Source: a bacterium (GTDB lineage Bacteria > Patescibacteriota > Patescibacteriia > SG8-24). From it: a stretch of 64,000 bases of DNA. Numbering within the stretch: the stretch's first letter is position 1; each line of letters starts with the position of its first letter. This document shows positions 12,373-61,762 of this stretch, in pieces. The stretch lies in contig JBDRRB010000018.1 of assembly GCA_043825985.1 (NCBI GenBank), forward strand, positions 16,934 to 80,933, in the 5' to 3' direction. The translations under genes were made by a program, and so were the position numbers. The notes under the pieces were generated by a model. That model was not told the origin of the DNA. It saw only the letters and a program-made list of their open reading frames with translations, and ran no database searches.

Positions 12373-13380
12373 GTGATAAAATGCAGGACGACAGGCGCCA
12401 CCATAAACGACAACACCATGAGTCCCAGTCCAGAAAAACGAGACAGGCCGGACAATGCCGGCGTCGACGGCAGCAAGGCCGCCCCGGAAAGGAAAGACGG
12501 GACCGAGAACGACCAACGCAAACAGCTGAAGGCTGAAATGGCGACCCGCAGACGGAAATTCACGGCGCTCAAAAAACTGCTCGACGAATACGAAAAGGCG
12601 GCGGCCCTGGCCGATCCTGACGACCAGGACCAGCAGGTGCTGAAAAAGGTGGCCAAAAAAGGCGGACCGCACGCCGTCCGGCTCAAGATGCTGCAGGAGG
12701 AACGGTCCGGGCTGCTCCTGCAGCAAAGGATCATGACCGACCGGGTAAACGAGACACGCCGCGAGCTGAACGCCGGCACCGAGCCGCTGGAAACGACGGC
12801 CGAACGGCTCAAGTCCGAGCTGACGGTGGCCGGCGACGAGAAAAAGATCGCCGTGACCAAAAGGATGCTGAAGAAGGTCGAGGACGCGATCGCCCTGGAG
12901 CTGACACTGGTGACGCTCCAGTCCAGCCTAAACGAGAACCGAGCCGAAACCGATCAGGCCGAGAGAAACGCGCTGACAGCGGCCACGGCCGAGACCGCAC
13001 CGGACGACGACGAGCGACCGACGGTCGAGATGGCCGCCGCGGACGACGACGAAGACGACGACGAAAGGCCGACGGCCGAGATGGCCGCCGCGGACGACGA
13101 CGAAAGGCCGACGGTCGAGATGGCCGTCGCGGACGACGACGGACGGTCGACGGTCGAATACCGGGCGAAACCGAAAATGCAGCCGGATAGCGGGCGAAAC
13201 ACGGACGGAGAAACCGAAGAGCCGGCCAAAAAACCGACCCGATGGCAGCGTCTGAAGGACTGGTGGAACCGACCCAAAGGCCTGAATCCGCCGGAAGCGA
13301 AGCACGAGAAGAGAAACGACGACTTCGCCGAGATGCTCAAGGAGGTCTGGGCCGGAATCAAGTCGATGTTCAAGTTCTAG
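12373..13380 (+). CDS. Acidic coiled-coil protein with internal tandem repeats (hypothetical)
   Basis: Lys/Glu-rich helical N-terminus, then 3-4 in-frame repeats ERPTVEMAAADDDE. Confidence 0.5.
   Translation: MIKCRTTGATINDNTMSPSPEKRDRPDNAGVDGSKAAPERKDGTENDQRKQLKAEMATRRRKFTALKKLLDEYEKAAALADPDDQDQQVLKKVAKKGGPHAVRLKMLQEERSGLLLQQRIMTDRVNETRRELNAGTEPLETTAERLKSELTVAGDEKKIAVTKRMLKKVEDAIALELTLVTLQSSLNENRAETDQAERNALTAATAETAPDDDERPTVEMAAADDDEDDDERPTAEMAAADDDERPTVEMAVADDDGRSTVEYRAKPKMQPDSGRNTDGETEEPAKKPTRWQRLKDWWNRPKGLNPPEAKHEKRNDDFAEMLKEVWAGIKSMFKF
12990..13160 (+). repeat. In-frame tandem repeat (~45-54 nt unit) inside the acidic protein gene
   Basis: Unit ccgacggtcgagatggccgccgcggacgacgacgaa... recurs three to four times with small variations. 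Confidence 0.6.
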
Positions 13381-14913: not shown

Positions 14914-14989
14914 GTTTCGAGGAATCGATGTAATGAATGATCCCAGCACCAGCGGACTTCTGGTCGGGATCCACCTTCGCTAAAGCTAT

Positions 14990-15395
14990 GGTGGACAGGT
15001 GCAGTGTGCCGACCTAGGACAAATCCACGCAGGTTCTGGGCGGGACCCGCCTCCGCCCTTCGACTTCACTACGGGCGGGGCAAGTGTTATGTACTCGGTT
15101 TCACACGCCAGCGGACTTCAGGTTGAGATGATATGTGCCGGTCTGGGGCGAGTCACGCGAAGAAACCATCGGCAGGTTCTGGGCGGGACCCGCCTCCGCC
15201 CTTCGACTTCACTCAGGGATACGGGCGGACAAGTGTCATGTGCCGACACCCTGCATCTCAACATCAGTGGGCTTCGGACGGGATGCGATGTGCCCGGCTG
15301 GACCGAACGACGAAGCGAAACGTACTGAAAACGTACGTTGAGCTAGGAGCGAGGGAAGCCGGACGCAGCGCGCCCGATCCGGAGACCACTTATCT
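14990..15395. repeat. Nested intergenic repeat array: 42-nt exact direct repeat (15029-15070, 15172-15213) plus modules of the dispersed structured element (copy A 15271-15392)
   Basis: Exact duplicate gcaggttctgggcgggacccgcctccgcccttcgacttcact. Recurring (a)tgtgccg motifs. Copy A core atgcgatgtgcc...aacgtac-tgaaaac-gtacgtt...gcagcgcgcccgatcc with a pairing closing helix cttcgga/tccggag. Confidence 0.7.
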
Positions 15396-16646
15396 TTACT
15401 CGTACTTCAAGGCGGAGATGGGGTCCAATTCCGCCGCCTTCCTCGCCGGATACGCGCCAAACACCATGCCGATGACCATGGCCACGAGCAGGGCCGCCAG
15501 GAAGGACGGCAGGGACACGGCGTACTGGACGTCGAAGCCGGTATACCTGGCGTAGGCGATGACCGCAACCGTCAGGACCGTGCCGGACAGCCCGCCCAGG
15601 GCACCGCCGGCCGTGGTCAGGATGACCGCCTCGGCCAGGAACTGCTGCCAGATGACCGCATTCCGGGCGCCGAGTGCCTTGCGCAGTCCGACCTCGCGGA
15701 CGCGCTCGGTGACCGAAACCAGCATGATGTTCATGATGCCGATGCCGCCGACCAGGAGCGAGATCGCGGCCAGCAGGCCGAGCAGGATGGTGATGGCGTT
15801 CGTCACCGTGCCGATCGTCTCCATCACCTCGGTATATGTATGCACCATGAAGTCGTCCTTGTCCGGGTCAGTGATGTCATGCCGCCGCCGCAGCACGGCC
15901 GAGGCCTCCTCGGAGACCGGATCGATGTACCGCTTGTCGGAGACGATCAGGTCTATCTCCTGCACGTACTCGTCGCCGGACAGCCGCTTCTGCATCAGCT
16001 TGAGCGGCATCAGGACGATGGTGTCGAAGTCCATCGGACCGAACACGCCGCGCGGCTCGAGCACACCGACGACCTGGAGGTTCAGCCCCTTGAGGCGGAC
16101 CTTCTGGCCGATCGGGTCAGACTCGCCGAACAGGTGCTCGGCCACCTTGCTGCCGAGCACGATCACCGGCGTCATCGACTTCTCCTCGCGCTCGCTGAAG
16201 ATCCGGCCGGCGCCGATCTCGGCCTGCAGGTCGAACGACATGTAGTTGGCGGTCGTGCCGAAGACCAGTGACCGGTACTCGCTGTCGCGGAATGACACGA
16301 AGGCCTGGCTGGTGTCGAAGGCCACCGCCTCGAGCACGTGCGGCAGGGACCGGAGCGCCTCGGCGTCGTCGTAGGTGATCGAGACGACCTCGGCGGCGGA
16401 GAACTGCGAGGTGATCGCGCCCTGGTCCGACAGTCCGGGGACGGTGGCGTTGATGGTCACGAAGTTCTTTCCGAACTGCTCGACCTGGGCCAGGATGTAG
16501 CTCTTCAGGCCGAAGCCGAGGGAGACGATCAGGGTGACCGAAAAGACGCCGATGGTCACGCCCAGGAGCGACAGCACGGTGCGCAGGCGGTTGCGGCGAA
16601 GGTTCCTGAGCGCCAGTCCGACGGTATTGCGATAGGCGTGCGGCAT
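15396..16646 (-). CDS. ABC transporter permease, FtsX/MacB-type
   Basis: N-terminal TM, large periplasmic domain, C-terminal 3-TM FtsX domain. Confidence 0.85.
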   Translation of the reverse strand: MPHAYRNTVGLALRNLRRNRLRTVLSLLGVTIGVFSVTLIVSLGFGLKSYILAQVEQFGKNFVTINATVPGLSDQGAITSQFSAAEVVSITYDDAEALRSLPHVLEAVAFDTSQAFVSFRDSEYRSLVFGTTANYMSFDLQAEIGAGRIFSEREEKSMTPVIVLGSKVAEHLFGESDPIGQKVRLKGLNLQVVGVLEPRGVFGPMDFDTIVLMPLKLMQKRLSGDEYVQEIDLIVSDKRYIDPVSEEASAVLRRRHDITDPDKDDFMVHTYTEVMETIGTVTNAITILLGLLAAISLLVGGIGIMNIMLVSVTERVREVGLRKALGARNAVIWQQFLAEAVILTTAGGALGGLSGTVLTVAVIAYARYTGFDVQYAVSLPSFLAALLVAMVIGMVFGAYPARKAAELDPISALKYE

Positions 16647-16649
16647 AGG

Positions 16650-17885
16650 CTATTCCTCCCTCAGGGCGACGATCGGGTCGAGACGCGACGCGGTCATGGC
16701 CGGCGAGACTCCCGAGACCATGCCGATTCCGGCCGCGACCACGAGCGCGGTCAGGACATACGACACCGGCATGAAGAAGTTCCAGGAGTAGCCGTAGTGC
16801 TGGACGGCCACCGATATCAGGACCGAGAAGCTGACCCCGATCACGGCGCCGACGATGCCGCCGGCCAGGGACATCGCCCCGCTCTCGATCAGGAACTGCA
16901 TCAGGATGCGCCGGCTGTTGGCGCCGAGGGCCTTCCGGAGGCCGATCTCGCGCCGCCGCTCGCGCACCGAGACGAACATGATGTTCATGATGTTGATCCC
17001 GCCCACCAGGAGCGCGATCGCCGTCACCACCAGCAGGAACCCCTGCATGGCGCCGGTCACGTTGCCCAGCATCTCGGCCGCCTGGTCGGTGCTGCCGATG
17101 GTGAAGTCGTCCTTGGAAGGGTCCTTGATGTGATGCTGCCGCCGCAGGGCCCGGGCGGCGTCGTCCTTGACCGTCTCCAGATTCGCACCGTCGACGGACT
17201 TGAGTCGGATGGCCGAGACATAGTCGATGCCCGCGACCAGGCGCTGGGCGGTGGTGACCGGTATGATCACCCGGTCGTCGAGGTTCTGGAAGAAGGCCGT
17301 CCCCTGCTCGGTCGTCACGCCGACGACCGTGAACCGGATGCCCTTGATGTCGACCGTCTGCCCGACCGGGCTCCGGTCCGGCGACAGCCCCTCGGCCACG
17401 GTCGTCCCGACCACGGCCACCCGGGCGAAGCGGGCCACGTCCTCGGCGGACAGGAAACGCCCTTCGGCCATCTCCAGCCCCTCCAGGTCCCAGGCCTGCT
17501 CGTTCACCCCGACGACCGAGGTGACGACGGTCTCGCGGCCCATCGACACGGTCCGGGTCGAGTTTACGTACGGCACCACGGCCTGCACGCCGCTGACCTT
17601 CCGCAGCGCGTCGGCGTCGTCGAGCTTGAGCGTGCCGAGCACGATGCCCATGGCGATGGGCGGCGGCTCGTTCTCCTGGCTGCCGCCGGGAGTGACGCCG
17701 ATCAGGTCGCCGCCGAATGAGGTCACCTGGCTCAGGATCAGGTCCTGCGCGCTCAGGCCGACCGAAGCGACAGTCAAAACGGACATCACCCCGATGATGA
17801 TGCCCAAGGTGGACAGCACGGCCCGGCTCCTCATCGCCCACAGCGACTTGAGGACGGAGATTGCGTCGCGCCACCAGATATTCAT
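16650..17885 (-). CDS. ABC transporter permease, FtsX/MacB-type (second paralog)
   Basis: Same architecture as the downstream permease, with 3-nt spacing between the two genes. Confidence 0.85.
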   Translation of the reverse strand: MNIWWRDAISVLKSLWAMRSRAVLSTLGIIIGVMSVLTVASVGLSAQDLILSQVTSFGGDLIGVTPGGSQENEPPPIAMGIVLGTLKLDDADALRKVSGVQAVVPYVNSTRTVSMGRETVVTSVVGVNEQAWDLEGLEMAEGRFLSAEDVARFARVAVVGTTVAEGLSPDRSPVGQTVDIKGIRFTVVGVTTEQGTAFFQNLDDRVIIPVTTAQRLVAGIDYVSAIRLKSVDGANLETVKDDAARALRRQHHIKDPSKDDFTIGSTDQAAEMLGNVTGAMQGFLLVVTAIALLVGGINIMNIMFVSVRERRREIGLRKALGANSRRILMQFLIESGAMSLAGGIVGAVIGVSFSVLISVAVQHYGYSWNFFMPVSYVLTALVVAAGIGMVSGVSPAMTASRLDPIVALREE

Positions 17886-41629: not shown

Positions 41630-42637
41630 TCAGAGAGTCCGGCCGATCTGCTCGGCCATCTCGGCCAGGCGCATCGAATAGCCCCATTCGTTGTCGTACC
41701 AGGCCACGACCTTCACGAAGTCGCCGCCGACGACCTTGGTCAGCGACAGGTCGACGATGGCCGAATGCGGATTGCCGATGAAGTCGGACGAGACCAGCGG
41801 CTCGTCGGTGACGTCGACAATGCCCCGATAGCGAATCCCCTTGGTCGCCTTGTGCAGCGTGTCGTTGACCTCGTCGACCGTGACCTTGCGCTTGAGAAGG
41901 AAGGTGAAGTCGGACAGCGACACCACCTGGGTCGGCACGCGAATCGCCATGCCGTCGAACATGCCCTTCAGCTCTGGAATGACTTCCGTGGTGGCGATGG
42001 CCGCACCGGTAGTGGTCGGAACGATGTTGGCCGCCGCAGCCCGGGCCCGACGCAGGTCCTTATGCGGACCGTCCTGCAGATTCTGGTCGGCGGTGTAGCT
42101 GTGGACCGTGGTCATGAGCGCCCGCCGCACCCCGAACGAGTTGTGCATGATCTCGGCCACCGGCGCGATGCAGTTGGTGGTGCAGGAGGCGTTGTTCGTG
42201 ACCTTGGCCCGCGGCTTGCCGCCGTCGTTCACCCCGATGACGTGGGTCGGGACGTTGCCGCCCTTGGCCGGAGCGGAGATGATGACGTGCCGCGCCCCGG
42301 CGGTCAGGTGCTGGCTGGCCAGTTCCTCGGTGCAGAACCGCCCGGTGCACTCGAGCACGATGTCGATCTTGTCCTTGGCCCACGGCAGTTTGGTTGGATC
42401 CTTTTCCTGATAGACCCGCACTCTCTTGCCGCCGACGATCAGGCTGGTCGAATCGGACTCGACCTTCCGATCGTACTGGCCGTAGACCGTATCGTACCTG
42501 AGCAGATGGGCCAGCGTGTCGGTGTCGGTCAGGTCATTGATGGCCACGAACTGCAGTGACTTGAGACGGCCGAAGGCGGCCTTGAATGTATTGCGTCCGA
42601 TGCGTCCGAAACCGTTGATGGCGACTCTGATGGGCAT
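41630..42637 (-). CDS. gap: Glyceraldehyde-3-phosphate dehydrogenase
   Basis: INGFGRIGR NAD-binding N-terminus and the ASCTTNCIAP active-site motif. Confidence 0.95.
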   Translation of the reverse strand: MPIRVAINGFGRIGRNTFKAAFGRLKSLQFVAINDLTDTDTLAHLLRYDTVYGQYDRKVESDSTSLIVGGKRVRVYQEKDPTKLPWAKDKIDIVLECTGRFCTEELASQHLTAGARHVIISAPAKGGNVPTHVIGVNDGGKPRAKVTNNASCTTNCIAPVAEIMHNSFGVRRALMTTVHSYTADQNLQDGPHKDLRRARAAAANIVPTTTGAAIATTEVIPELKGMFDGMAIRVPTQVVSLSDFTFLLKRKVTVDEVNDTLHKATKGIRYRGIVDVTDEPLVSSDFIGNPHSAIVDLSLTKVVGGDFVKVVAWYDNEWGYSMRLAEMAEQIGRTL

Positions 42638-42689
42638 AGCCGAATTACGTTAGGGCATTTCTTCTCCTTATTTGCCGCTTGATTATACA

Positions 42690-42716
42690 ACAAAAAAGAG
42701 CGCGGAACACGCTCTA
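42690..42716 (-). terminator. Minus-strand intrinsic terminator at the edge of the low-GC islet
   Basis: On minus: agagcgtgttccgcgctct hairpin followed by TTTTTTG. Confidence 0.5.
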
Positions 42717-42814
42717 CGAAAAGGAACTCGTCTCTATCGTTCAACAACGGCAGCGCTGGCTGAGGTGCAGCCGACGATAGGCCTGATCAGCCAGCGGACA
42801 GAACAACCCAGGAT

Positions 42815-43054
42815 TCAGTTCGGAAGTGGCATCCAAACCGAGCCATTCGGTTCAAACATCCACTGATTCATGATGTTCACCAACTCACCACGGTCTGAGG
42901 GTACGACCTTGAAAAAGTTGTGAACGAGCTGAACATAACGACGGGACTCGGGATCGGTGTGGGAAATGTCATCGAAAACCATTTCCTCGCCACAGCTCAG
43001 CACATCACCGGCCAACAGGCTCGAACTGACCAGCCCGGACATGAAGCCAGACAC
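42815..43054 (-). pseudogene. Short ORF or gene remnant of unknown function
   Basis: 79-aa ORF in a 650-bp gene-poor stretch with intermediate GC. No start context and no recognisable complete domain. A minus-strand terminator lies downstream. Confidence 0.2.
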
Positions 43055-43288
43055 CGTTTCGACCAGGGTATCGCCCTTTGTGACCGGAATGCCAGGGAAA
43101 GAAAGTTAAAGTAGCCTCCTGAAAAAATCTAATAACAAAAAAATTTATTTCATATAACGTTCCAGAATATGCGATGTTTGGCAGTGGTAAAATTTGGAGC
43201 GGAGCGACATACCACTGCCAAATATGAGAGAGCGAACGGAGCGATAGCGGAGTGAGTGAACCAGTTATTCATTGTTAAGTGATGTGAT

Positions 43289-43765
43289 TTAAATTTTCTC
43301 CATCATTTTCTCAACTGTTTCTTCAACTGTCAGATCGGTATTGTCAATTTCATGACCTGCTTGAATTTTTGTAGTAACCATGTGCACGAATCGAGCAGAA
43401 TCTTCACCGTAAACTTTTTTCCTTTTGGAATCCCTCTCGATACATTTATCTACGTGGCTGGTTAGAGTGAAAATTTCTACATCATTATCAAATTTTTCCA
43501 CTAAATCATCAATTTGTTCTTGATAGTAGAAACACCCATCAATAATAAAGGAATTTTCACTCTTCTTTGCTAAATCGAGGATGATTTGATTTGCTTTTAA
43601 GTAGCTCTCGAGAGGGATTCCATCTGAATTAGCTGGAACCAGTTTGTTATCATCAACAATTTGATCTAGTGATAAATATTCTAGGTGAAGATTCTGCGAC
43701 AACAGTTGAGAAACAGTTGTTTTGCCAACACCTAATGGACCTCTGATTATTATTAGTTTTTTCAT
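43289..43765 (-). CDS. Small P-loop kinase (AAA_33/NMP-kinase-like, predicted nucleotide or small-molecule kinase)
   Basis: Walker A GPLGVGKTT at residues 9-17 and a 158-aa single-domain kinase fold. Gene and flanks are ~35-40% GC against ~65% for the window. Confidence 0.6.
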   Translation of the reverse strand: MKKLIIIRGPLGVGKTTVSQLLSQNLHLEYLSLDQIVDDNKLVPANSDGIPLESYLKANQIILDLAKKSENSFIIDGCFYYQEQIDDLVEKFDNDVEIFTLTSHVDKCIERDSKRKKVYGEDSARFVHMVTTKIQAGHEIDNTDLTVEETVEKMMEKI

Positions 43766-43971
43766 AGACTGAAAAATTAAATCATTTCACATAACGTTGG
43801 GCTTATGCGAAGTTCAAAATTTGAGGCAACCCACAAATTTTGAATTTGGGAAACCGAAGTGCAACGAGGTTTCCGCATAAGCCCTGTTATGTGCCCCGAG
43901 CGTAACGCAGTGAAGCGAGAGTGCAACGTGGTCGACCGACTGAAAGGAGGGAGAAGTTAGGGTGGCGGACA

Positions 43972-44334
43972 TCATTCAATGAATCCATCTCTCTTCAGCT
44001 TCTCAAGTGAATTATTGATGGATTCTTCTAATTCTTTATCTGCTTTGTAATAAGCACATATTTGGAGGGCTGAACGTAAGACATCTTGAATCTCTTTGGC
44101 GAGCTTCTTTTTGTCTGGTTCTCCATGCTTATCTTTTTTAACTCCGGTATTCTCAAAATGATTTACTTCACTAGCAAGCTCGCCACATTCTTCAACGAGT
44201 CGTGTGATTATTTGAAAAGGATCTTTGCCATTCGGAAACTTCTTATCTAATCCCGCGTTAATTTTTATAACTTTGTCTAACATATTTGTTGTGAAGCCCT
44301 CCAAATATTTAAAGATGATGTAATTGTCCGCCAC
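43972..44334 (-). CDS. MazG-like nucleotide pyrophosphohydrolase (small all-alpha NTP-PPase)
   Basis: EECGELASEV (EExGE motif) and a second acidic helix (EIQDVLRSAL). 120 aa. Low GC, with an AT-rich upstream region. Confidence 0.65.
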   Translation of the reverse strand: MADNYIIFKYLEGFTTNMLDKVIKINAGLDKKFPNGKDPFQIITRLVEECGELASEVNHFENTGVKKDKHGEPDKKKLAKEIQDVLRSALQICAYYKADKELEESINNSLEKLKRDGFIE

Positions 44335-44399
44335 CCTAATTGCACATAACTAGTTTTTATCCGAACTTTGTATTCCAAGTGTGATAAATTCTTGTTTGT

Positions 44400-44871
44400 T
44401 ATACAAACTTTTTTAAAAAAGCCGAACTCTCGAGGTTGAGAAAACAATAGTAAGGTTTAAACCGGAATCCGGTTCAATCGTTTCTGGATCCCGGATCTCC
44501 TTCCCTCCGGTCAGTCGTCCGGGATGACAGGCTAGGGGGCTGGTCAGTCGTCCGGGATGACAATAACTGTTGTCATGGCAAGCAGAAAAAGCAGCAGTGA
44601 TCAGAAAAACAAGCAGCCCTTGGACGGGAGGCGATGTACCGATCGAAAAACAAAGCAGGCCACAGATTGGACCCACCTCCACCAAGACTTCGGTGGGCAG
44701 GTGAAGTGTGTCCTAACCGGTCCCGGAAAATGAAACAGCCCTTGGACGGGATGCGATGTGCCTGCTTGGAGGAAATCGTACGACGAGGCGTACTAGTGCA
44801 ATACGTCGAGTAAACGATTTCCGAAAGCTGGTGCAGCGCGCCCGATCCAAGGGCTGCCATTCCTTGACGGT
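44400..44871. repeat. Repeat-dense spacer: 21-nt direct repeat (ggtcagtcgtccgggatgaca x2), two 5' modules of the structured element (44617, 44739), and copy D (44737-44858) ending 14 nt from the tsf stop
   Basis: cagcccttggacggga[gt]gcgatgt[ag]cc occurs twice. Copy D closing helix cagcccttgga/tccaagggctg is a perfect 11 bp. Conserved gtgcagcgcgcccgatcc 3' core. Confidence 0.65.
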
Positions 44872-45459
44872 CTAGAGAGCGAAACGAATGAAGCGTCTAA
44901 TCTGCATGTTCTCGCCGATCTTGGCGATATTGTTCTTGAGATGGTCCTGGACGGTCAGGTCCTCGTCCTTGATGAACCGCTGATTAAGCAGACAGACATC
45001 CTGACGGTACTTATCCAACTTACCCTCGACGATCTTGGCGATGACGTCGGCCGGCTTGCCGGAACCGGCGAACTCCTCGGCTGCCAGCTCGCGTTCCTTC
45101 TCCAGGACGTCGGCCGGTATGTCGTCCGCGGTCAGGTACAGCGGATTGGCCGCCGCAACGTGCATAGCCAGGTCATGAACGAATTCCTTGAACTGCTCGT
45201 TGAGAGCGACAAAATCCGTCTCACACAGCACCTCGACCATGGCGCCGACCTTGCCCGTACCATGAATGTAGGCATGAACCAGCCCTTCCTTGACCTCGCG
45301 GTCGCCTTTCTTGTCGGCCTTGGCGATGCCCTTCTTGCGGAGGATGTCCGCCGCCTTGTCGATGTCTCCGCCGGCCTCGTCGAGGGCGGTCTTGCAGTCG
45401 ACCATGCCGGCGTTGGTGCGGGCACGGAGTTCGGCGATGGTCCTGGTGTCAACGGCCAT
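44872..45459 (-). CDS. tsf: Elongation factor Ts (short form)
   Basis: N-terminal UBA-like IAELRARTNAGMVDCKTALDEAGGDIDKA and the dimerisation core. 195 aa. Immediately downstream of rpsB. Confidence 0.9.
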   Translation of the reverse strand: MAVDTRTIAELRARTNAGMVDCKTALDEAGGDIDKAADILRKKGIAKADKKGDREVKEGLVHAYIHGTGKVGAMVEVLCETDFVALNEQFKEFVHDLAMHVAAANPLYLTADDIPADVLEKERELAAEEFAGSGKPADVIAKIVEGKLDKYRQDVCLLNQRFIKDEDLTVQDHLKNNIAKIGENMQIRRFIRFAL

Positions 45460-52443: not shown

Positions 52444-53580
52444 CTACGCACGCACGCCCTTCATGGACATCGACTCCAGAAGACCGATCATCGCGAACTT
52501 CACGAGCAGCGAACTGCCGCCGTAGCTGACGAACGGCAGGGTCACTCCGGTCACCGGCATCAGCCTCAGGTTCCCTCCCAGATTGACGAACACCTCAAGG
52601 GCGATGGAGACCGTGATGCCCGTCGCCAGGTACACCGAAAAGTCGTCGCTCGACCGAACCGCCAGCCGATACCCGCGCCAGAACACCACGCCGAACATCA
52701 GGCACAGGACGAACACTCCGACGTAGCCCAGCTCCTCGGCGATGACCGCGAAGATGAAGTCGGTCTGTCGTTCCGGCAGGAAGCGCAGCTGACTCTGCGA
52801 CCCGTAGCCCATGCCCTTGCCGGTCAGCCCGCCGGATCCGATGGCGATTATCGACTGGGTGACGTTGTAGCCGCGCCCGAGCGGATCGCTTTCCGGATCA
52901 AGAAACGACAGGATGCGGTCCTTCTGGTACGGCTTGAGCAGCAGGGTCCAGGCCAGCAGCGCCACCGCCCCGACGCCCACTGCCAACAGCAGCAGGTGCG
53001 AACGCCTGATGCCGGACAGCAGGACCAGCACTCCCCAGACGCCCATTATAAGGAATGCGGAACCGAAGTCCGGCTGCAGCAGCACCAGGCCGACGACCGG
53101 CAGGACGGCCAGGCCGGAGACGATCACGTGCCGCAGTCCCCTCTCCTTTCCGGCGAAGTCGCTCAGGTATTTCGCCAAAAAGATGATGACCAGCAGCTTG
53201 ACCAGCTCGACCGGCTGCACGCCGAATCCGGCGATGCCGAACCAGCCGGTCGTGCCGCGAATCCGCGTGCCGAAGACCAGGACCAGCAGCAGCAGGACAA
53301 CCGAAATCGACAGAACCTGACGCGACATTCGCGACAGCGAACGGTAGTCGAAGGCCGGCAGGGCGAAGGCCAGGACCAGGCCGAGACCGACGAACCAGAG
53401 CTGCTTCCAGAAGTTTCCCAGGTCCGGACCGGCGGAAGACGAACCGGAAACCAACGCACTGCCGGCACCGGCCAACGAGGTGCTGTAGAGCGCCGACAGG
53501 CCGAACACGGCCAGCAGAACGCAGGCCCCCAAAAGGAGCCAGTCGAACTTGAGGACGTCGTAAGTTGATGTTCTGGACAT
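52444..53580 (-). CDS. ftsW: SEDS-family peptidoglycan glycosyltransferase (FtsW/RodA)
   Basis: About 10-TM topology with the conserved ...GLTGKGMGYGSQ... and C-terminal ...LPFVSYGGSS... SEDS motifs. Confidence 0.85.
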   Translation of the reverse strand: MSRTSTYDVLKFDWLLLGACVLLAVFGLSALYSTSLAGAGSALVSGSSSAGPDLGNFWKQLWFVGLGLVLAFALPAFDYRSLSRMSRQVLSISVVLLLLVLVFGTRIRGTTGWFGIAGFGVQPVELVKLLVIIFLAKYLSDFAGKERGLRHVIVSGLAVLPVVGLVLLQPDFGSAFLIMGVWGVLVLLSGIRRSHLLLLAVGVGAVALLAWTLLLKPYQKDRILSFLDPESDPLGRGYNVTQSIIAIGSGGLTGKGMGYGSQSQLRFLPERQTDFIFAVIAEELGYVGVFVLCLMFGVVFWRGYRLAVRSSDDFSVYLATGITVSIALEVFVNLGGNLRLMPVTGVTLPFVSYGGSSLLVKFAMIGLLESMSMKGVRA

Positions 53581-53762
53581 GGCCGAAAGATTATCGCGGA
53601 CTAAGTCTATGCGCGCCGGCCAGACGAGTCAAAACAGGACCGAACAATAAAGCTGTACCCATTTCCCGACGACGAATGACGAGCCGAGACGAAGAACAAT
53701 CGCGTCCGTTCGATGCCGAATCGGACCGAGAAAAAACAAAAACCGTCGACAATGGCAGTGAA

Positions 53763-53792
53763 CAAAAAAACCGCTCACTGCTAGTGAGCGGC
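53763..53792 (-). terminator. Minus-strand intrinsic terminator ~450 nt downstream of the nearest minus-strand gene
   Basis: On minus: ccgctcactagcagtgagcgg hairpin followed by TTTTTTTG. Confidence 0.5.
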
Positions 53793-54109
53793 AATCATGT
53801 CATTGCGAGCGAGTGCGGCGAGCGTGGAAATCCCGACCGAAGCACAGACCCCGACGGGATCATCACGTTACGTCGATTCCTGCCTGCCCCGCCTGCCGGC
53901 GTGCAGGAACAGGCAGGCGCTCCTCCATTCGTGACGAGAACATCCCCGTGGATTCCCGATACGTCGTTCGCGAACGACGTATCCCGCCGGAGCCTGCCCT
54001 CGCGAAGGCGGGGGGCGGTAATGACATGCGGTTAGATGAAAAACAAACCGACCAGGACTCTCTGGTCGGACGTAACTACTATGGCAAGCAGGTTCTGGAT
54101 GGAATTCAT

Positions 54110-54250
54110 CTTAAAACAAAGCGGACTTCAGGTTGGATGAAGTGTGCTTGGCTGGAGCGATCCGTGCAGCGAAACGTACTAAGAACGTACGTTGAGCAAA
54201 CGGATCGCGAAGCCAAGTGCAATTCGCCAAGCTGGAGTCCGCCCAATCTA
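54110..54250. repeat. Structured repeat element, copy B (diverged)
   Basis: gcggact...agtccgc 7-bp closing helix, atgaagtgtgc core, gcgaaacgtac-taagaa-cgtacgttgagc hairpin, gtgcaattcgcc 3' core. Overlaps the stop codon of 54248..55249. Confidence 0.6.
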
Positions 54251-55249
54251 ATCCTCCGGCGCAAGGTAGATGGCCGGATCGAACAGGTTCAACTCCGGCC
54301 TAACTTCGACTCGGGTCACGCTCGGCAGGTCATTGAACCAGCTGGCCTCGACAGTCCTGGTCTCGCCGGCCTTCAGCCCGCTCGCCACGACCCGGTTGGC
54401 CGCCACTACCCGTTCGCCGCTCAGCAGGGCCACCATGAACGGCACCGAAACGTAGCCGTAGGCGGTGTTGTTGGTGACGCTGAAACGGGCCCGGCTGACC
54501 GGCAGCGACGACTTCGGGTCCGGCGGCATGAACTCCGGATCGGCGATGACGAAATCCAGCCGGCTGGTCGCCCAAGTCTGGTAGTCGGGACGGACGACAT
54601 GCCCGTCAACCCGATGCCAGGACAGGTCGACTATCTCGAAGCTGGGGCTCGGCCGTCGGTCGGCGTCGACCGCCAGCTGATACAGGTAGCGGGAGTCGGC
54701 CGGCAGGAGATATCCGTGCTGCACGCGGTCCGGCAGCCCGGAATCGACGAATCGGTAGTCGAACTCGACCCACCAGCGACGGTTCGGGTTGGCCACCCGG
54801 GCCAGCAGGTCGTACTTGCCCTCGCCGGACGTCAGCACGATCGGCGTCTGGACGGACAGGCGCTCCGGCATGGAGGCCTCGCGGAATCCGGCGTAGTCGG
54901 TCAGATTCTGGGTCAGGAGGGCGGTTCCGGCCCGCTCCCGCACGCCGGACCCGAAGAACCAGTCGGCGAAACCCCAGACGCCGTAGGCCAGAAGAGAAAA
55001 TCCGACCACTGCCAGCAGCACGGTCAGCCCGGTCTTGAGCTGCGCCTTGTGATGAAGCCACCACAGGCCCCACCTGAGCTGATCCTCCGAAAGACGGTCA
55101 TCGTTCTCGATTGGTGTCTCCATATAATATAGGTAGCCGGTTAACGACTCCATGATAGCAGACTCGGGCGGCCGGGCCGAGAGACTTGACCGAGACCGAC
55201 GGCTGTGTTGTACAGGCCGGCTGTGACCTCTCCTCGAGAGGCACTGCAA
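54248..55249 (-). CDS. Hypothetical membrane protein
   Basis: N-terminal TM region (GLTVLLAVVGFSLLAYGVWGF) and a ~250-aa extracytoplasmic domain. No recognisable motif. Confidence 0.5.
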   Translation of the reverse strand: MQCLSRRGHSRPVQHSRRSRSSLSARPPESAIMESLTGYLYYMETPIENDDRLSEDQLRWGLWWLHHKAQLKTGLTVLLAVVGFSLLAYGVWGFADWFFGSGVRERAGTALLTQNLTDYAGFREASMPERLSVQTPIVLTSGEGKYDLLARVANPNRRWWVEFDYRFVDSGLPDRVQHGYLLPADSRYLYQLAVDADRRPSPSFEIVDLSWHRVDGHVVRPDYQTWATSRLDFVIADPEFMPPDPKSSLPVSRARFSVTNNTAYGYVSVPFMVALLSGERVVAANRVVASGLKAGETRTVEASWFNDLPSVTRVEVRPELNLFDPAIYLAPED

Positions 55250-61534: not shown

Positions 61535-61639
61535 TCGCACGCATACGGTGGGTCCCCGGACTCGGGACCGCTTCTCTCCGTAGACAAACGGAAACCCCGC
61601 TTCTTAAAGCGGAGCCGTCCAATTCATTCCAAACATCGA

Positions 61640-61762
61640 CGGGCACTGGGCGGGATGCAGTGTGCCCCGCTGGACCGAGCGACGACGCGAGACGTACCCA
61701 AAATGTACGGCGAGCTAGGAGCACGGGAAGCGGGGTGCAATGCGCCCGACCCAGTGACCGCA
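61640..61762. repeat. Structured repeat element, copy C, within the rplK 5' leader
   Basis: Closing helix cactggg/cccagtg (perfect 7 bp), junction cggg/(A)/cccg, core atgcagtgtgcc, hairpin gacgtac-ccaaaat-gtacgg, gagctaggagc, gcaatgcgcccga. Ends about 10 nt before the rplK ATG. Confidence 0.65.

What the first reader, a model, noticed from the sequence alone, without database searches (positions are those of the whole stretch)
53581..54247. 670-bp highly structured non-coding region with its own minus-strand terminator, a candidate ncRNA locus
Between ftsW and the 54248 gene there is no credible ORF but several strong palindromes. These include ccgctcactg-ctagtgagcgg (a minus-strand terminator with a 7-T run, 53763-53792), cctgcctg...caggcagg, a perfect 26-nt palindrome gatacgtcgttcg|cgaacgacgtatc (53958-53983), a gcaggttctgg module, and copy B of the structured element. 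Copy B overlaps the stop codon of the upstream minus-strand gene. A terminator about 450 nt beyond the nearest minus-strand stop implies either a very long structured 3' UTR or an independent non-coding transcript. Loose resemblances to RNase P and tmRNA motifs (GGAAAUCCCGA, ACAGACCCCGAC, UUCUGGAU) do not hold up in spacing.
Basis: seen in the sequence. Interest (0 to 1): 0.5.

Follow-up and report, generated by a model that had tools for sequence, protein, structure and literature searches.

The report
Repeat-stuffed spacer, not an RNA gene
The 670-base "structured non-coding region" is an ordinary terminator-plus-promoter gap, swollen about four-fold by inserted miniature hairpin repeats. 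One of these repeats belongs to a large family of 125-base hairpins in candidate-phyla-radiation (CPR) bacteria that I could not find described anywhere.

Summary
The palindromes, the minus-strand terminator and the lack of a credible ORF are all real. The inference of a dedicated ncRNA locus is not supported.

- **Ancestral parts.** In the two closest relatives (SEDS protein 80% identical) the same spacer is about 162 bp: stop codon, terminator, TTGACN17TAAACT promoter, ATG. The window's terminator T2 (53760-53792) is the ortholog of that terminator, and the promoter is conserved too.
- **Inserted parts.** About 455 bp lie between the stop codon and T2:
  - hairpin "copy B" (54120-54243), 4 nt from the stop codon;
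  - a possible 5'-arm remnant ("gcaggttctgg");
  - a 233-bp unit bounded by inverted repeats (53796-54028), built around the 26-nt palindrome.
- **The palindrome** has a 20-nt core that is itself a dispersed repeat (24 sites in the held DNA).
- **The copy B family** is widespread. There are 4 full copies in this window and 66 distinct copies in metagenomes. 42 of 44 base pairs show compensatory change. Rfam has no match and I found no paper.
- **Behaviour of the family.** It is patchy between relatives. Copies are 90-99% identical at different loci in one sample. Its strand bias does not follow host transcription.

It behaves like REPIN/ERIC-type mobile palindromic DNA. A function as an RNA is not excluded.

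The parts
52444..53580 (-). SEDS-family gene (RodA/FtsW). Its start codon bounds the spacer.
   Evidence: Pfam FTSW_RODA_SPOVE, E = 3e-94. NCBIfam RodA 336.8 bits, FtsW 312.4 bits.
53604..53632 (-). Sigma-70-type promoter of the SEDS gene (TTGACT, 17 nt, TAGACT). Ancestral.
   Evidence: Promoter scan. The same TTGAC-N17-TAAACT motif sits at the same distance from the ATG in L001 and L012.
53760..53792 (-). Terminator T2, the ancestral intrinsic terminator of gene X, displaced by the insertions.
   Evidence: Terminator scan. Orthologous to AGCCGC..GCGGCTTTTTTGTTCAC in L001 and L012, where it lies about 22 nt after the stop. The TTTTTTGTTCAC tail is shared.
53796..54028 (.). 233-bp unit made of hairpins and bounded by the inverted repeat CATGTCATT / AATGACATG. 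Inserted relative to the closest relatives.
   Evidence: Sequence. The closing stem appears in the folds of both strands. Absent from L001 and L012. A unit of the same build (CATTGCGAGCG...palindrome...CGCAATGAC) lies upstream of a hairpin copy in L187.
53958..53983 (.). Perfect 26-nt palindrome. Its 20-nt core ACGTCGTTCGCGAACGACGT is a dispersed REP-like repeat.
   Evidence: the repeat finder I4. 24 sites with at most 3 mismatches in the held DNA, including variants that change both halves and keep the palindrome.
53877..53917 (.). cctgcctg...caggcagg hairpin inside the unit.
   Evidence: the repeat finder I13 and I1.
54038..54069 (-). Terminator T1 (CCGACCAGAGAGTCCTGGTCGG followed by TTTGTTTTT). 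First terminator after gene X. Not present in relatives.
   Evidence: Terminator scan. Absent from L001 and L012.
54083..54102 (+). Possible remnant of a hairpin 5' arm (ggcaaGCAGGTTCTGGATGg).
   Evidence: The exact 11-mer occurs three times in the window (15029, 15172, 54088), all on the + strand upstream of copies A and B, and nowhere exactly in about 1.9 Mb of other loci. It resembles the 5' arm TCAGGTTGGATG. Tentative.
54120..54243 (+). Hairpin repeat copy B. It is read on the + strand, which is antisense to the flanking genes. It lies 4 nt from the stop of gene X.
   Evidence: Covariance models R1 and R2 score it 125.2 and 119.5 bits. Fold -80 kcal/mol, z = -11.7.
54248..55249 (-). Gene X, 333 aa, no Pfam or NCBIfam family. 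Conserved next to gyrB and the SEDS gene in relatives.
   Evidence: Homologs in L001 (8917-9837), L012 (3543-4499) and L005 (1987-2865).
15266..15390 (+). Hairpin copy A, 5 nt from the stop of a MacB/FtsX permease gene.
15110..15162 (+). Partial copy containing only the 5' arm. Its first 16 nt are identical to copy B.
   Evidence: Sequence.
44734..44858 (+). Hairpin copy C, 13 nt from the stop of tsf. A partial 5'-arm copy lies at 44604-44640.
61638..61762 (+). Hairpin copy D, inside the rplK 5' UTR, 9 nt before the ATG.

Best explanation
The spacer is a normal terminator-promoter gap that has been expanded by a mosaic of miniature palindromic repeats. This resembles the BIME/REPIN clusters of proteobacteria.

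**Shown**
- T2 and the promoter are ancestral.
- About 455 bp between the stop codon of gene X and T2 are extra compared with the closest relatives.
- The extra DNA consists of copy B, a possible arm remnant, T1 and a unit bounded by inverted repeats.
- Copy B and the 20-nt palindrome core each belong to a dispersed repeat family.

**Inferred**
- Copy B's family is REPIN-like mobile or selfish DNA. It would be selected as a strand-specific single-stranded hairpin, most likely DNA during mobilisation.
- It settles next to gene ends.
- At this locus the gene X transcript reads the reverse complement of copy B as a very stable hairpin straight after the stop codon, then ends there or at T1.
- T2 is now largely redundant.
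- No separate ncRNA gene is needed to explain the region.
For: **Insertion into an ancestral spacer**
- The spacer is about 162 bp in L001 and L012, with a conserved terminator tail and a conserved -35/-10.

**The hairpin family is real and structured**
- The window holds 4 full copies plus partial copies, all intergenic.
- A MAFFT alignment of the 4 copies shows compensatory change at 22 of 44 pairs.
- Across 66 distinct copies, 93.4% of cells are paired, against 27-41% when partners are slid. 42 of 44 pairs show compensatory change.

**It behaves like mobile DNA**
- It is patchy. Among 80 related genome loci, model R2 finds it only in L043 and L056. Model R1 with filters off adds a weak 31-bit hit in L005. 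It is absent from the two closest relatives.
- Copies at different loci in sample Ga0265297 are 90-99% identical.
- Occupied sites differ between related genomes around nusG-rplK.
- Partial 5'-arm copies pile up beside full ones.
- A 50-nt module is nested inside some copies.

**The strand bias does not follow host transcription**
- The better-pairing strand, called "sense" here, is antisense to co-directional flanking gene pairs in about 24 cases and sense in about 5.
- It is antisense to the rRNA in four 23S-5S spacers.
- G-U pairs still outnumber A-C pairs 63:14 on the sense strand in exactly those contexts. Overall the ratio is 161:44.
- The sense strand folds better in 69 of 70 copies.
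- G+C skew of the neighbourhood, read on the sense strand, is negative in 32 of 41 cases.

**Other points**
- No conserved promoter shows in the 5' flank.
- REPINs are described as inverted REP doublets that form hairpins in ssDNA or mRNA, with compensatory changes (PMC3116915).
Against: - No transposase partner was found. Both are weak tests, and the whole genome is not available.
- There is no target-site duplication and no clean empty-versus-filled site pair.
- The most conserved bases are purine-rich internal loops with tandem G.A pairs, not the element ends. That pattern is more typical of a protein-binding RNA.
- The element's 3' end sits 6-9 nt before tRNA 5' ends (7 loci) and start codons (4 loci). 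A copy is kept before rplK in two genomes. This could reflect function.
- The 4 copies in this window are only 54-76% identical, so they are old and maintained.
- The alignment was fitted to the model. The fishing pattern fixed TGGA, CGA, CGTAC, TACG and GAG, so conservation of those bases is partly built in.
Confidence: 0.6

Rival explanations
1. The 125-nt hairpin family, including copy B, is a functional structured RNA made from the "sense" (+) strand. It would be either its own small transcript or a leader element, and a protein would recognise it through the conserved tandem G.A loops and the bulged GGGAUG. Copy B would then be a small RNA convergent with gene X.
For: - Covariation is strong.
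- G-U pairs exceed A-C pairs 161:44, and the sense fold is more stable by 14.8 kcal/mol on average.
- The loop bases UGGA/GAA and CGA/UGAG are conserved.
- The 3' end lies 6-8 nt before tRNA 5' ends in 7 loci and 7-9 nt before start codons in 4 loci. In those places it is certainly transcribed in sense.
- Copy D lies within the rplK leader, downstream of a conserved L1-type motif, in both the window and L153.
- In many Ga0265297 copies a hairpin follows the element. In some of them it carries a U-tail on the sense strand.
Against: - No conserved promoter lies at a fixed distance upstream.
- In most contexts only the opposite strand is known to be transcribed. This covers about 24 of 29 co-directional gene pairs and four 23S-5S spacers.
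- The family is absent from the closest relatives and its positions vary.
- Recent near-identical copies, partial copies and nested insertions look like selfish DNA.
- Copy B has no terminator on the + strand.
Confidence: 0.25
2. An independent non-coding RNA of about 280 nt is transcribed on the minus strand between T1 and T2, with T2 as its own terminator.
For: - The stretch is flanked by terminators on the same strand, T1 upstream and T2 downstream.
- It is highly structured, with z = -4.7.
- It has no coding signal.
Against: - T2 is orthologous to the gene X terminator of relatives that lack the unit.
- No promoter-like site lies between 54037 and 53990.
- The unit as a whole has no homolog in about 1.9 Mb of related DNA. 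Only its palindrome recurs.
- Both strands fold equally well, as expected for palindromic DNA.
- No Rfam family matches.
Confidence: 0.07
3. The region is a long regulatory 5' leader or attenuator of the SEDS (rodA/ftsW) gene.
For: It lies directly upstream of that gene on the same strand, and it contains terminator-like hairpins.
Against: - The conserved promoter (53632-53604) lies downstream of all the palindromes. That leaves a leader of only about 17-25 nt, as in the relatives.
- Relatives manage without the extra 500 bp.
Confidence: 0.03

Closest known systems
[quoted passage not shown]
   Same: - Extragenic and multi-copy.
- A hairpin of about 100-125 nt made of two imperfectly inverted conserved arms (cgGGATGnnnTGnGcc / ggcnCAnnnCGCCcg) separated by a spacer that keeps pairing through compensatory changes.
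- Arm-only "singlets" and mosaics with other small palindromes.
- Near-identical copy populations within one genome.
- Strand asymmetry compatible with a single-stranded intermediate.
   Different: - No RAYT or IS200-like gene was found in the DNA held.
- The host is CPR/Patescibacteria, not proteobacteria.
- An outer variable stem of about 12 bp flanks the conserved arms.
- The conserved tandem G.A loops and the apical CGUAC stem are not REPIN features.
- Partial copies are direct repeats of one arm, not alternating as in BIMEs.
- One end abuts gene boundaries tightly.
ERIC/IRU (about 127 bp) and Correia/NEMIS miniature repeats of enterobacteria and Neisseria (from general knowledge, not tested here)
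   Same: - Imperfect palindromes of about 125 bp in intergenic regions.
- Co-transcribed with neighbouring genes in either orientation.
- Fold into long RNA hairpins that can affect mRNA ends.
   Different: - No sequence relationship is known.
- No terminal inverted repeats with a TA duplication.
- The stems covary, instead of the ends being conserved.
Intrinsic (Rho-independent) terminators
   Same: T1 and T2 are standard G+C-rich hairpins followed by T-tracts. T2 is orthologous to the terminator of relatives.
   Different: Copy B is not itself a canonical terminator. Its stem has 44 pairs, and only its reverse complement is followed by a U-rich run at this locus.
Integron attC sites
   Same: - Imperfect palindromes of 57-141 nt, conserved in structure rather than sequence.
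- Strand-specific folding as ssDNA.
- Located right after the stop codons of genes.
   Different: - No RYYYAAC / GTTRRRY core sites at the ends.
- Copies are dispersed next to core genes (tsf, rplK, rRNA, tRNA), not in cassette arrays.

Membership tests
REPIN / REP-RAYT system | Extragenic, multi-copy palindromic repeat | tested here: met
   The window has 4 full copies plus partial ones, all intergenic. 66 distinct copies come from metagenome contigs.
REPIN / REP-RAYT system | Two inverted conserved REP arms plus a spacer, folding into a hairpin with compensatory changes | tested here: met
   42 of 44 pairs show compensatory change. One difference remains: an outer variable stem flanks the conserved arms.
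REPIN / REP-RAYT system | Populations of near-identical copies within a genome (recent replication) | tested here: inconclusive
   Copies are 90-99% identical at distinct loci in sample Ga0265297. The window's own copies are only 54-76% identical. Contigs from one sample may come from more than one strain.
REPIN / REP-RAYT system | A cognate single-copy RAYT (HUH Y1 transposase) gene, usually flanked by the repeats | tested here: inconclusive
Both tests are weak, and the full genomes are not held.
Classical MITE (terminal inverted repeats plus target-site duplication) | Conserved terminal inverted repeats and a duplicated target at both ends | tested here: not met
   The outer stem is the most variable part. 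The flank logos show no duplication.
Known RNA families (RNase P, tmRNA, 6S, SRP, riboswitches, ribozymes; Rfam 15) | Covariance-model match at gathering score | tested here: not met
   There are 0 matches in the whole window. Only chance-level hits appear at E up to 10 in the spacer and over copy D. ARAGORN finds nothing.
Intrinsic terminator (T2, T1) | G+C-rich hairpin followed by a T-tract, downstream of a gene on the same strand | tested here: met
   Both were found by the scan. T2 is orthologous to the terminators in L001 and L012.
Integron attC | R''/R' core sites (RYYYAAC ... GTTRRRY) at the ends, and cassette arrays beside intI | tested here: not met
   The end logos lack the core sites. 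Copies are 7-30 kb apart, beside core genes.
TIGR-Tas guide arrays (PMC12045711) | Tandem arrays of short box C/D-like units with unpaired spacers, next to a Nop-domain tas gene | tested here: not met
   The copies are dispersed, almost fully paired hairpins without spacer loops. The neighbouring genes tested are housekeeping genes.

The most novel reading that the evidence does not exclude
The 125-nt hairpin is a new multi-copy structured RNA of CPR bacteria, not just selfish DNA. It would be made from, or selected on, its own strand, and a protein would bind it through two conserved tandem G.A (k-turn-like) loops. Its placement would mark or process transcript ends. The evidence for placement is that it sits 6-9 nt before tRNA 5' ends and start codons, right after stop codons, and in 23S-5S spacers. 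On this reading, the reduced genomes of these organisms use a dispersed RNA "punctuation" element.
Probability: 0.2. Interest if true: 0.75.

Novelty: new member of a known kind. Interest (0 to 1): 0.42.

Why it matters
**For this finding.** It removes a false lead. The "own terminator" is an old gene terminator displaced by insertions, and the structure comes from stacked palindromic repeats.

**More broadly.**
- CPR/Patescibacteria genomes are tiny and streamlined. Even so, this one carries a hairpin repeat about every 15 kb, including inside an r-protein leader. In other genomes the same family sits inside rRNA spacers and tRNA leaders.
- The family has 66 distinct copies and near-complete covariation. 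It is absent from Rfam, and five full-text searches for a description of such a repeat found none. It therefore deserves a curated model, if only to mask it in ncRNA screens.
- Its strand asymmetry follows the element rather than the host transcript. Its end abuts gene boundaries. These two features make it a workable system for asking how REPIN-like elements move and persist in organisms where no partner transposase is known.

Tried and rejected
- **RNase P, tmRNA or any Rfam family.** No match.
- **Small proteins in the spacer.** Five ORFs of 45-156 aa have no Pfam hit at E<=1 and no codon-position G+C signal.
- **Decayed hairpin copies inside the T1-T2 unit.** Model R1 with filters off finds only generic hairpins scoring under 7 bits.
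- **The whole T1-T2 unit as a repeat.** Only the palindrome recurs.
- **Origin of replication at the gene-strand switch near 55.5 kb or in the low-GC stretch at 42.6-44.9 kb.** G+C skew does not flip, and there is no DnaA-box cluster.
- **An autonomous parent element.** I looked for hairpin arms separated by a transposase gene and found no convincing case.
- **An IS200/RAYT-like gene near copies.** None found. These are weak tests.
- **Phage origin.** The pattern has 0 hits in IMG/VR.
- **attC and TIGR arrays.** Their defining features are not met.
- **A sigma-70 promoter for copy B on the + strand.** None found.
- **"gcaggttctgg" as a family-wide motif.** It is exact only in this window.
- **Literature.** Five full-text searches for a description of such a repeat in CPR bacteria found none, and a search for the string GTCATTGCGAG found only unrelated papers. 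A seventh search retrieved the REPIN papers used for comparison.

Full report
**Anatomy of the spacer.** The spacer 53581-54247 lies between two minus-strand genes. One is a SEDS-family gene (52444-53580; Pfam FTSW_RODA_SPOVE, E = 3e-94; NCBIfam RodA 336.8 bits, FtsW 312.4 bits). The other is an unknown 333-aa gene, here called gene X (54248-55249). Reading the minus strand from the stop of gene X, the features come in this order:
- a 4-nt gap;
- the reverse complement of hairpin copy B (54243-54120), followed by TTTGTTTT;
- a short spacer that contains the "gcaggttctgg" module;
- terminator T1 (stem 54069-54048, T-tail to 54038);
- a 233-bp unit closed by CATGTCATT/AATGACATG (54028-53796), which holds the cctgcctg/caggcagg hairpin and the perfect 26-nt palindrome (53958-53983);
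- terminator T2 (53792-53760);
- about 125 nt of unremarkable sequence;
- a TTGACT-17-TAGACT promoter (53632-53604);
- the ATG.

No ORF in the spacer has a Pfam hit or a coding-type codon-position G+C pattern. Rfam finds nothing at gathering score in the whole window, and only chance-level hits at E up to 10 in the spacer. ARAGORN finds no tRNA or tmRNA. The folds are far more stable than shuffled sequence: z = -11.7 for copy B and -4.7 for the T1-T2 stretch on either strand.

**Comparison with relatives.** The SEDS protein places the window in CPR/Patescibacteria. The best matches, at 80% identity, are a Candidatus Uhrbacteria MAG (L001) and a Parcubacteria MAG (L012). Both keep the gene order gyrB, gene X, SEDS gene. 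Their gene X-SEDS spacer is only about 162 bp:
- stop codon;
- about 22 nt;
- AGCCGC..GCGGC TTTTTTGTTCAC;
- about 100 nt;
- TTGAC-N17-TAAACT;
- ATG.

The window's T2 (GCCGCTCACTAGCAGTGAGCGG TTTTTTTGTTCAC) is clearly the same terminator, and the promoter is the same promoter. The C-terminus and stop codon of gene X also align (…YLAPED* against …YLAPES*). About 455 bp (53793-54247) have therefore been added between the stop codon and the ancestral terminator. It now lies closest to the stop.

**The copy B family.** Copy B is one of four full copies in the window:
- A, 15266-15390;
- C, 44734-44858;
- B, 54120-54243;
- D, 61638-61762.

All four are on the + strand. Partial 5'-arm copies lie at 15110-15162 and 44604-44640. 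Each full copy folds into an almost fully paired hairpin of about 125 nt (-67 to -80 kcal/mol). A plain MAFFT alignment of the four copies already shows compensatory changes at 22 of 44 pairs.

A covariance model built from these four copies (R1) found copies in L043 (Ca. Uhrbacteria). It also found a weak copy in L005, directly after the gene X homolog. From those loci and the window, 70 matches (66 distinct sequences) were aligned. On that alignment:
- 93.4% of cells are standard pairs, against 27-41% when partners are slid by 1-3 columns;
- 42 of 44 pairs have double changes;
- the covariation score is 0.60, against 0.19 in shuffles.

The conserved bases are a bulged GGGAUG, a UGGA/GAA loop, a CGA/UGAG loop (both loops are tandem G.A) and CA…CGCC.

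Two caveats apply. The fishing pattern fixed TGGA, CGA, CGTAC, TACG and GAG. The alignment is also fitted to the model.

No Rfam family matches. Five full-text searches found no description of such a repeat. The only CPR-related RNA paper retrieved describes TIGR-Tas arrays, which have a different architecture.

**Distribution of the family.** A broader model (R2) run over the 80 related genome loci hits only the window, L043 (twice) and L056. It finds nothing in L001 or L012. Occupied sites differ between related genomes:
- before rplK in the window and L153;
- after rplK in L138;
- before nusG in L101;
- empty in L001.

In sample Ga0265297, copies at different loci are 90-99% identical. They share a 5' extension (GGTACTCCCGGGCTGACGCCCGGGGTTTT) and a 3' TAAACAAAAA, while the flanks beyond these differ. 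The window's own copies are only 54-76% identical. IMG/VR has no match. Some copies carry a 50-nt nested module inserted at the GCG^(G)AA loops. Arm-only copies form arrays next to full copies.

**Strand and genomic context.** I call the strand on which the models were built "sense"; in the window this is the + strand. It folds better than its complement in 69 of 70 copies, by 14.8 kcal/mol on average. In variable pairs it holds 161 G-U against 44 A-C.

Genes were called with a codon-position G+C filter and tRNAs with ARAGORN. On that basis, the sense 3' end abuts a gene boundary in most cases:
- the stop codon of a convergent gene at 0-13 nt, or at 33-50 nt with a small terminator in between (about 26 copies);
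- a tRNA 5' end at 6-8 nt on the same strand (7 loci);
- a start codon at 7-9 nt on the same strand (4 loci, including rplK in the window and in L153).

Between co-directional gene pairs the element is antisense in about 24 cases and sense in about 5. In four 23S-5S spacers it is antisense to the rRNA. So the host transcript usually carries the reverse complement.

Even so, the G-U excess stays on the sense strand in exactly those contexts: 63:14, against 22:10 where the host transcribes the sense strand. The asymmetry therefore belongs to the element, not to the host mRNA. The G+C skew of the surrounding ±6 kb, read on the sense strand, is negative in 32 of 41 cases. This includes copies that are co-directional with their neighbouring genes. 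The window itself shows no skew flip. The 5' flank holds no conserved promoter. The 3' flank is T-A-A and then A-rich. There is no target duplication and there are no attC core sites.

**The other modules.** The 20-nt core of the 26-nt palindrome, ACGTCGTTCGCGAACGACGT, occurs 24 times (at most 3 mismatches) in the held DNA. All other sites are in high-GC contigs of sample Ga0265297. Several variants change both halves and keep the palindrome. In L187 this core sits inside a CATTGCGAGCG…CGCAATGAC unit about 125 nt upstream of a hairpin copy, which is the same order as in the window. The exact "gcaggttctgg" 11-mer occurs three times in the window, always upstream of copies A and B, and nowhere exactly in the other loci. 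It resembles the hairpin's 5' arm. R1 finds no decayed hairpin copies inside the T1-T2 unit.

**Interpretation.** The best-supported reading is that the spacer is an ancestral terminator-promoter gap filled with a mosaic of miniature palindromic repeats. I put about 0.85 confidence on that part.

The hairpin family behaves like REPIN/ERIC-type selfish DNA. REPINs are inverted REP doublets that form hairpins in ssDNA or mRNA and show compensatory changes (PMC3116915). A selection signature that follows the element strand and not the host transcript, together with the skew-linked orientation, points to a single-stranded DNA intermediate. My confidence in that part is about 0.45. No partner transposase was found, but the tests were weak.

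At this locus the gene X mRNA would carry the -62 kcal/mol reverse-complement hairpin immediately after its stop codon and would end there or at T1. This step is inferred.

The main rival holds that the hairpin is a functional sense-strand RNA bound through its G.A loops. Three things keep this rival alive:
- the conserved purine loops;
- the tight spacing to tRNA and start-codon boundaries;
- the copy kept in the rplK leader, downstream of a conserved L1-type motif.

I give it about 0.25. An independent minus-strand small RNA between T1 and T2 is unlikely, at about 0.07.

**Verdict.**
- copy B does not overlap the stop codon;
- T1 was missed;
- the gene is SEDS family and marginally RodA-like.

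The ncRNA-locus interpretation is only partly supported. The by-product is a well-supported hairpin repeat family of CPR bacteria that I could not find described. It is a new member of a known kind, of moderate interest.

Noticed in passing
window 61545-61582: The motif acggtgggtccccggactcgggaccgcttctctccgta upstream of rplK is conserved in L153, L001, L064, L003 and L043 (…gcttctctcc…). It is probably the L1-binding leader of the rplKA operon. Rfam did not call it at gathering score.
   Followed up: partly
window 42600-44900: A low-GC stretch (about 0.52 against 0.63-0.66) downstream of tsf holds only small ORFs (158, 120 and 90 aa). It also contains an AT-rich 40-nt inverted repeat at 43464-43563. 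There is no DnaA-box cluster. It may be acquired DNA.
   Followed up: partly
L119 8285-8459, L112 5372-5546, L164 920-1093, L143, L156, L090 7690-7865: The 175-nt variants of the hairpin carry the same 50-nt module (CCCCGCCACTGTATTTCATCAAAGAGGGCGGGGTCCCGCCAWCGGCGGGAA). It is nested at one of two GCG^(G)AA loop positions. This is a second miniature element that targets the first. Related GGGCGGGACCCGCC modules occur in the window at about 15040 and 15183.
   Followed up: partly
L172 1150-1900 (minus strand); window 14950-15265: Direct arrays of copies containing only the 5' arm (GGGATGnnnTGnG…CTGGAG) lie upstream of one full hairpin. No 3'-arm remnants are present. How such one-sided arrays arise is unexplained.
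   Followed up: partly
L107 10646-10765, L191 3463-3582, L188 603-725, L130 896-1016: In four different metagenome contigs the hairpin repeat sits in the 23S-5S spacer, 8-21 nt from the matched 3' end of the 23S rRNA (L107, L191, L188) and antisense to the rRNA. L188 also has a group I intron in its 23S gene.
   Followed up: yes
L003, L005, L006, L064 and others (record titles): Several records titled "uncultured Gammaproteobacteria" (and one "Binatia", one "Acutalibacteraceae") encode a SEDS protein 57-68% identical to the window's. Most also share long stretches of nucleotide similarity with the window over gyrB and neighbouring genes. Their taxonomic labels look wrong, and they are probably CPR bacteria.
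   Followed up: no
window 15396-16646 and 16650-17885: Two adjacent paralogous MacB/FtsX-type permease genes, with repeat spacing of 1254 nt.
   Followed up: no
window 12995-13157: Tandem 39-51-nt repeats rich in GACGAC, inside ORF 12373-13380. They would encode an acidic repeat tract.
   Followed up: no
L005 2866-2967: A shorter hairpin (102 nt) scoring 31 bits with R1 sits directly after the stop of the gene X homolog. This is the same place and orientation as copy B, although the two closest relatives lack it. It is unclear whether this reflects shared ancestry or an independent insertion.
   Followed up: partly
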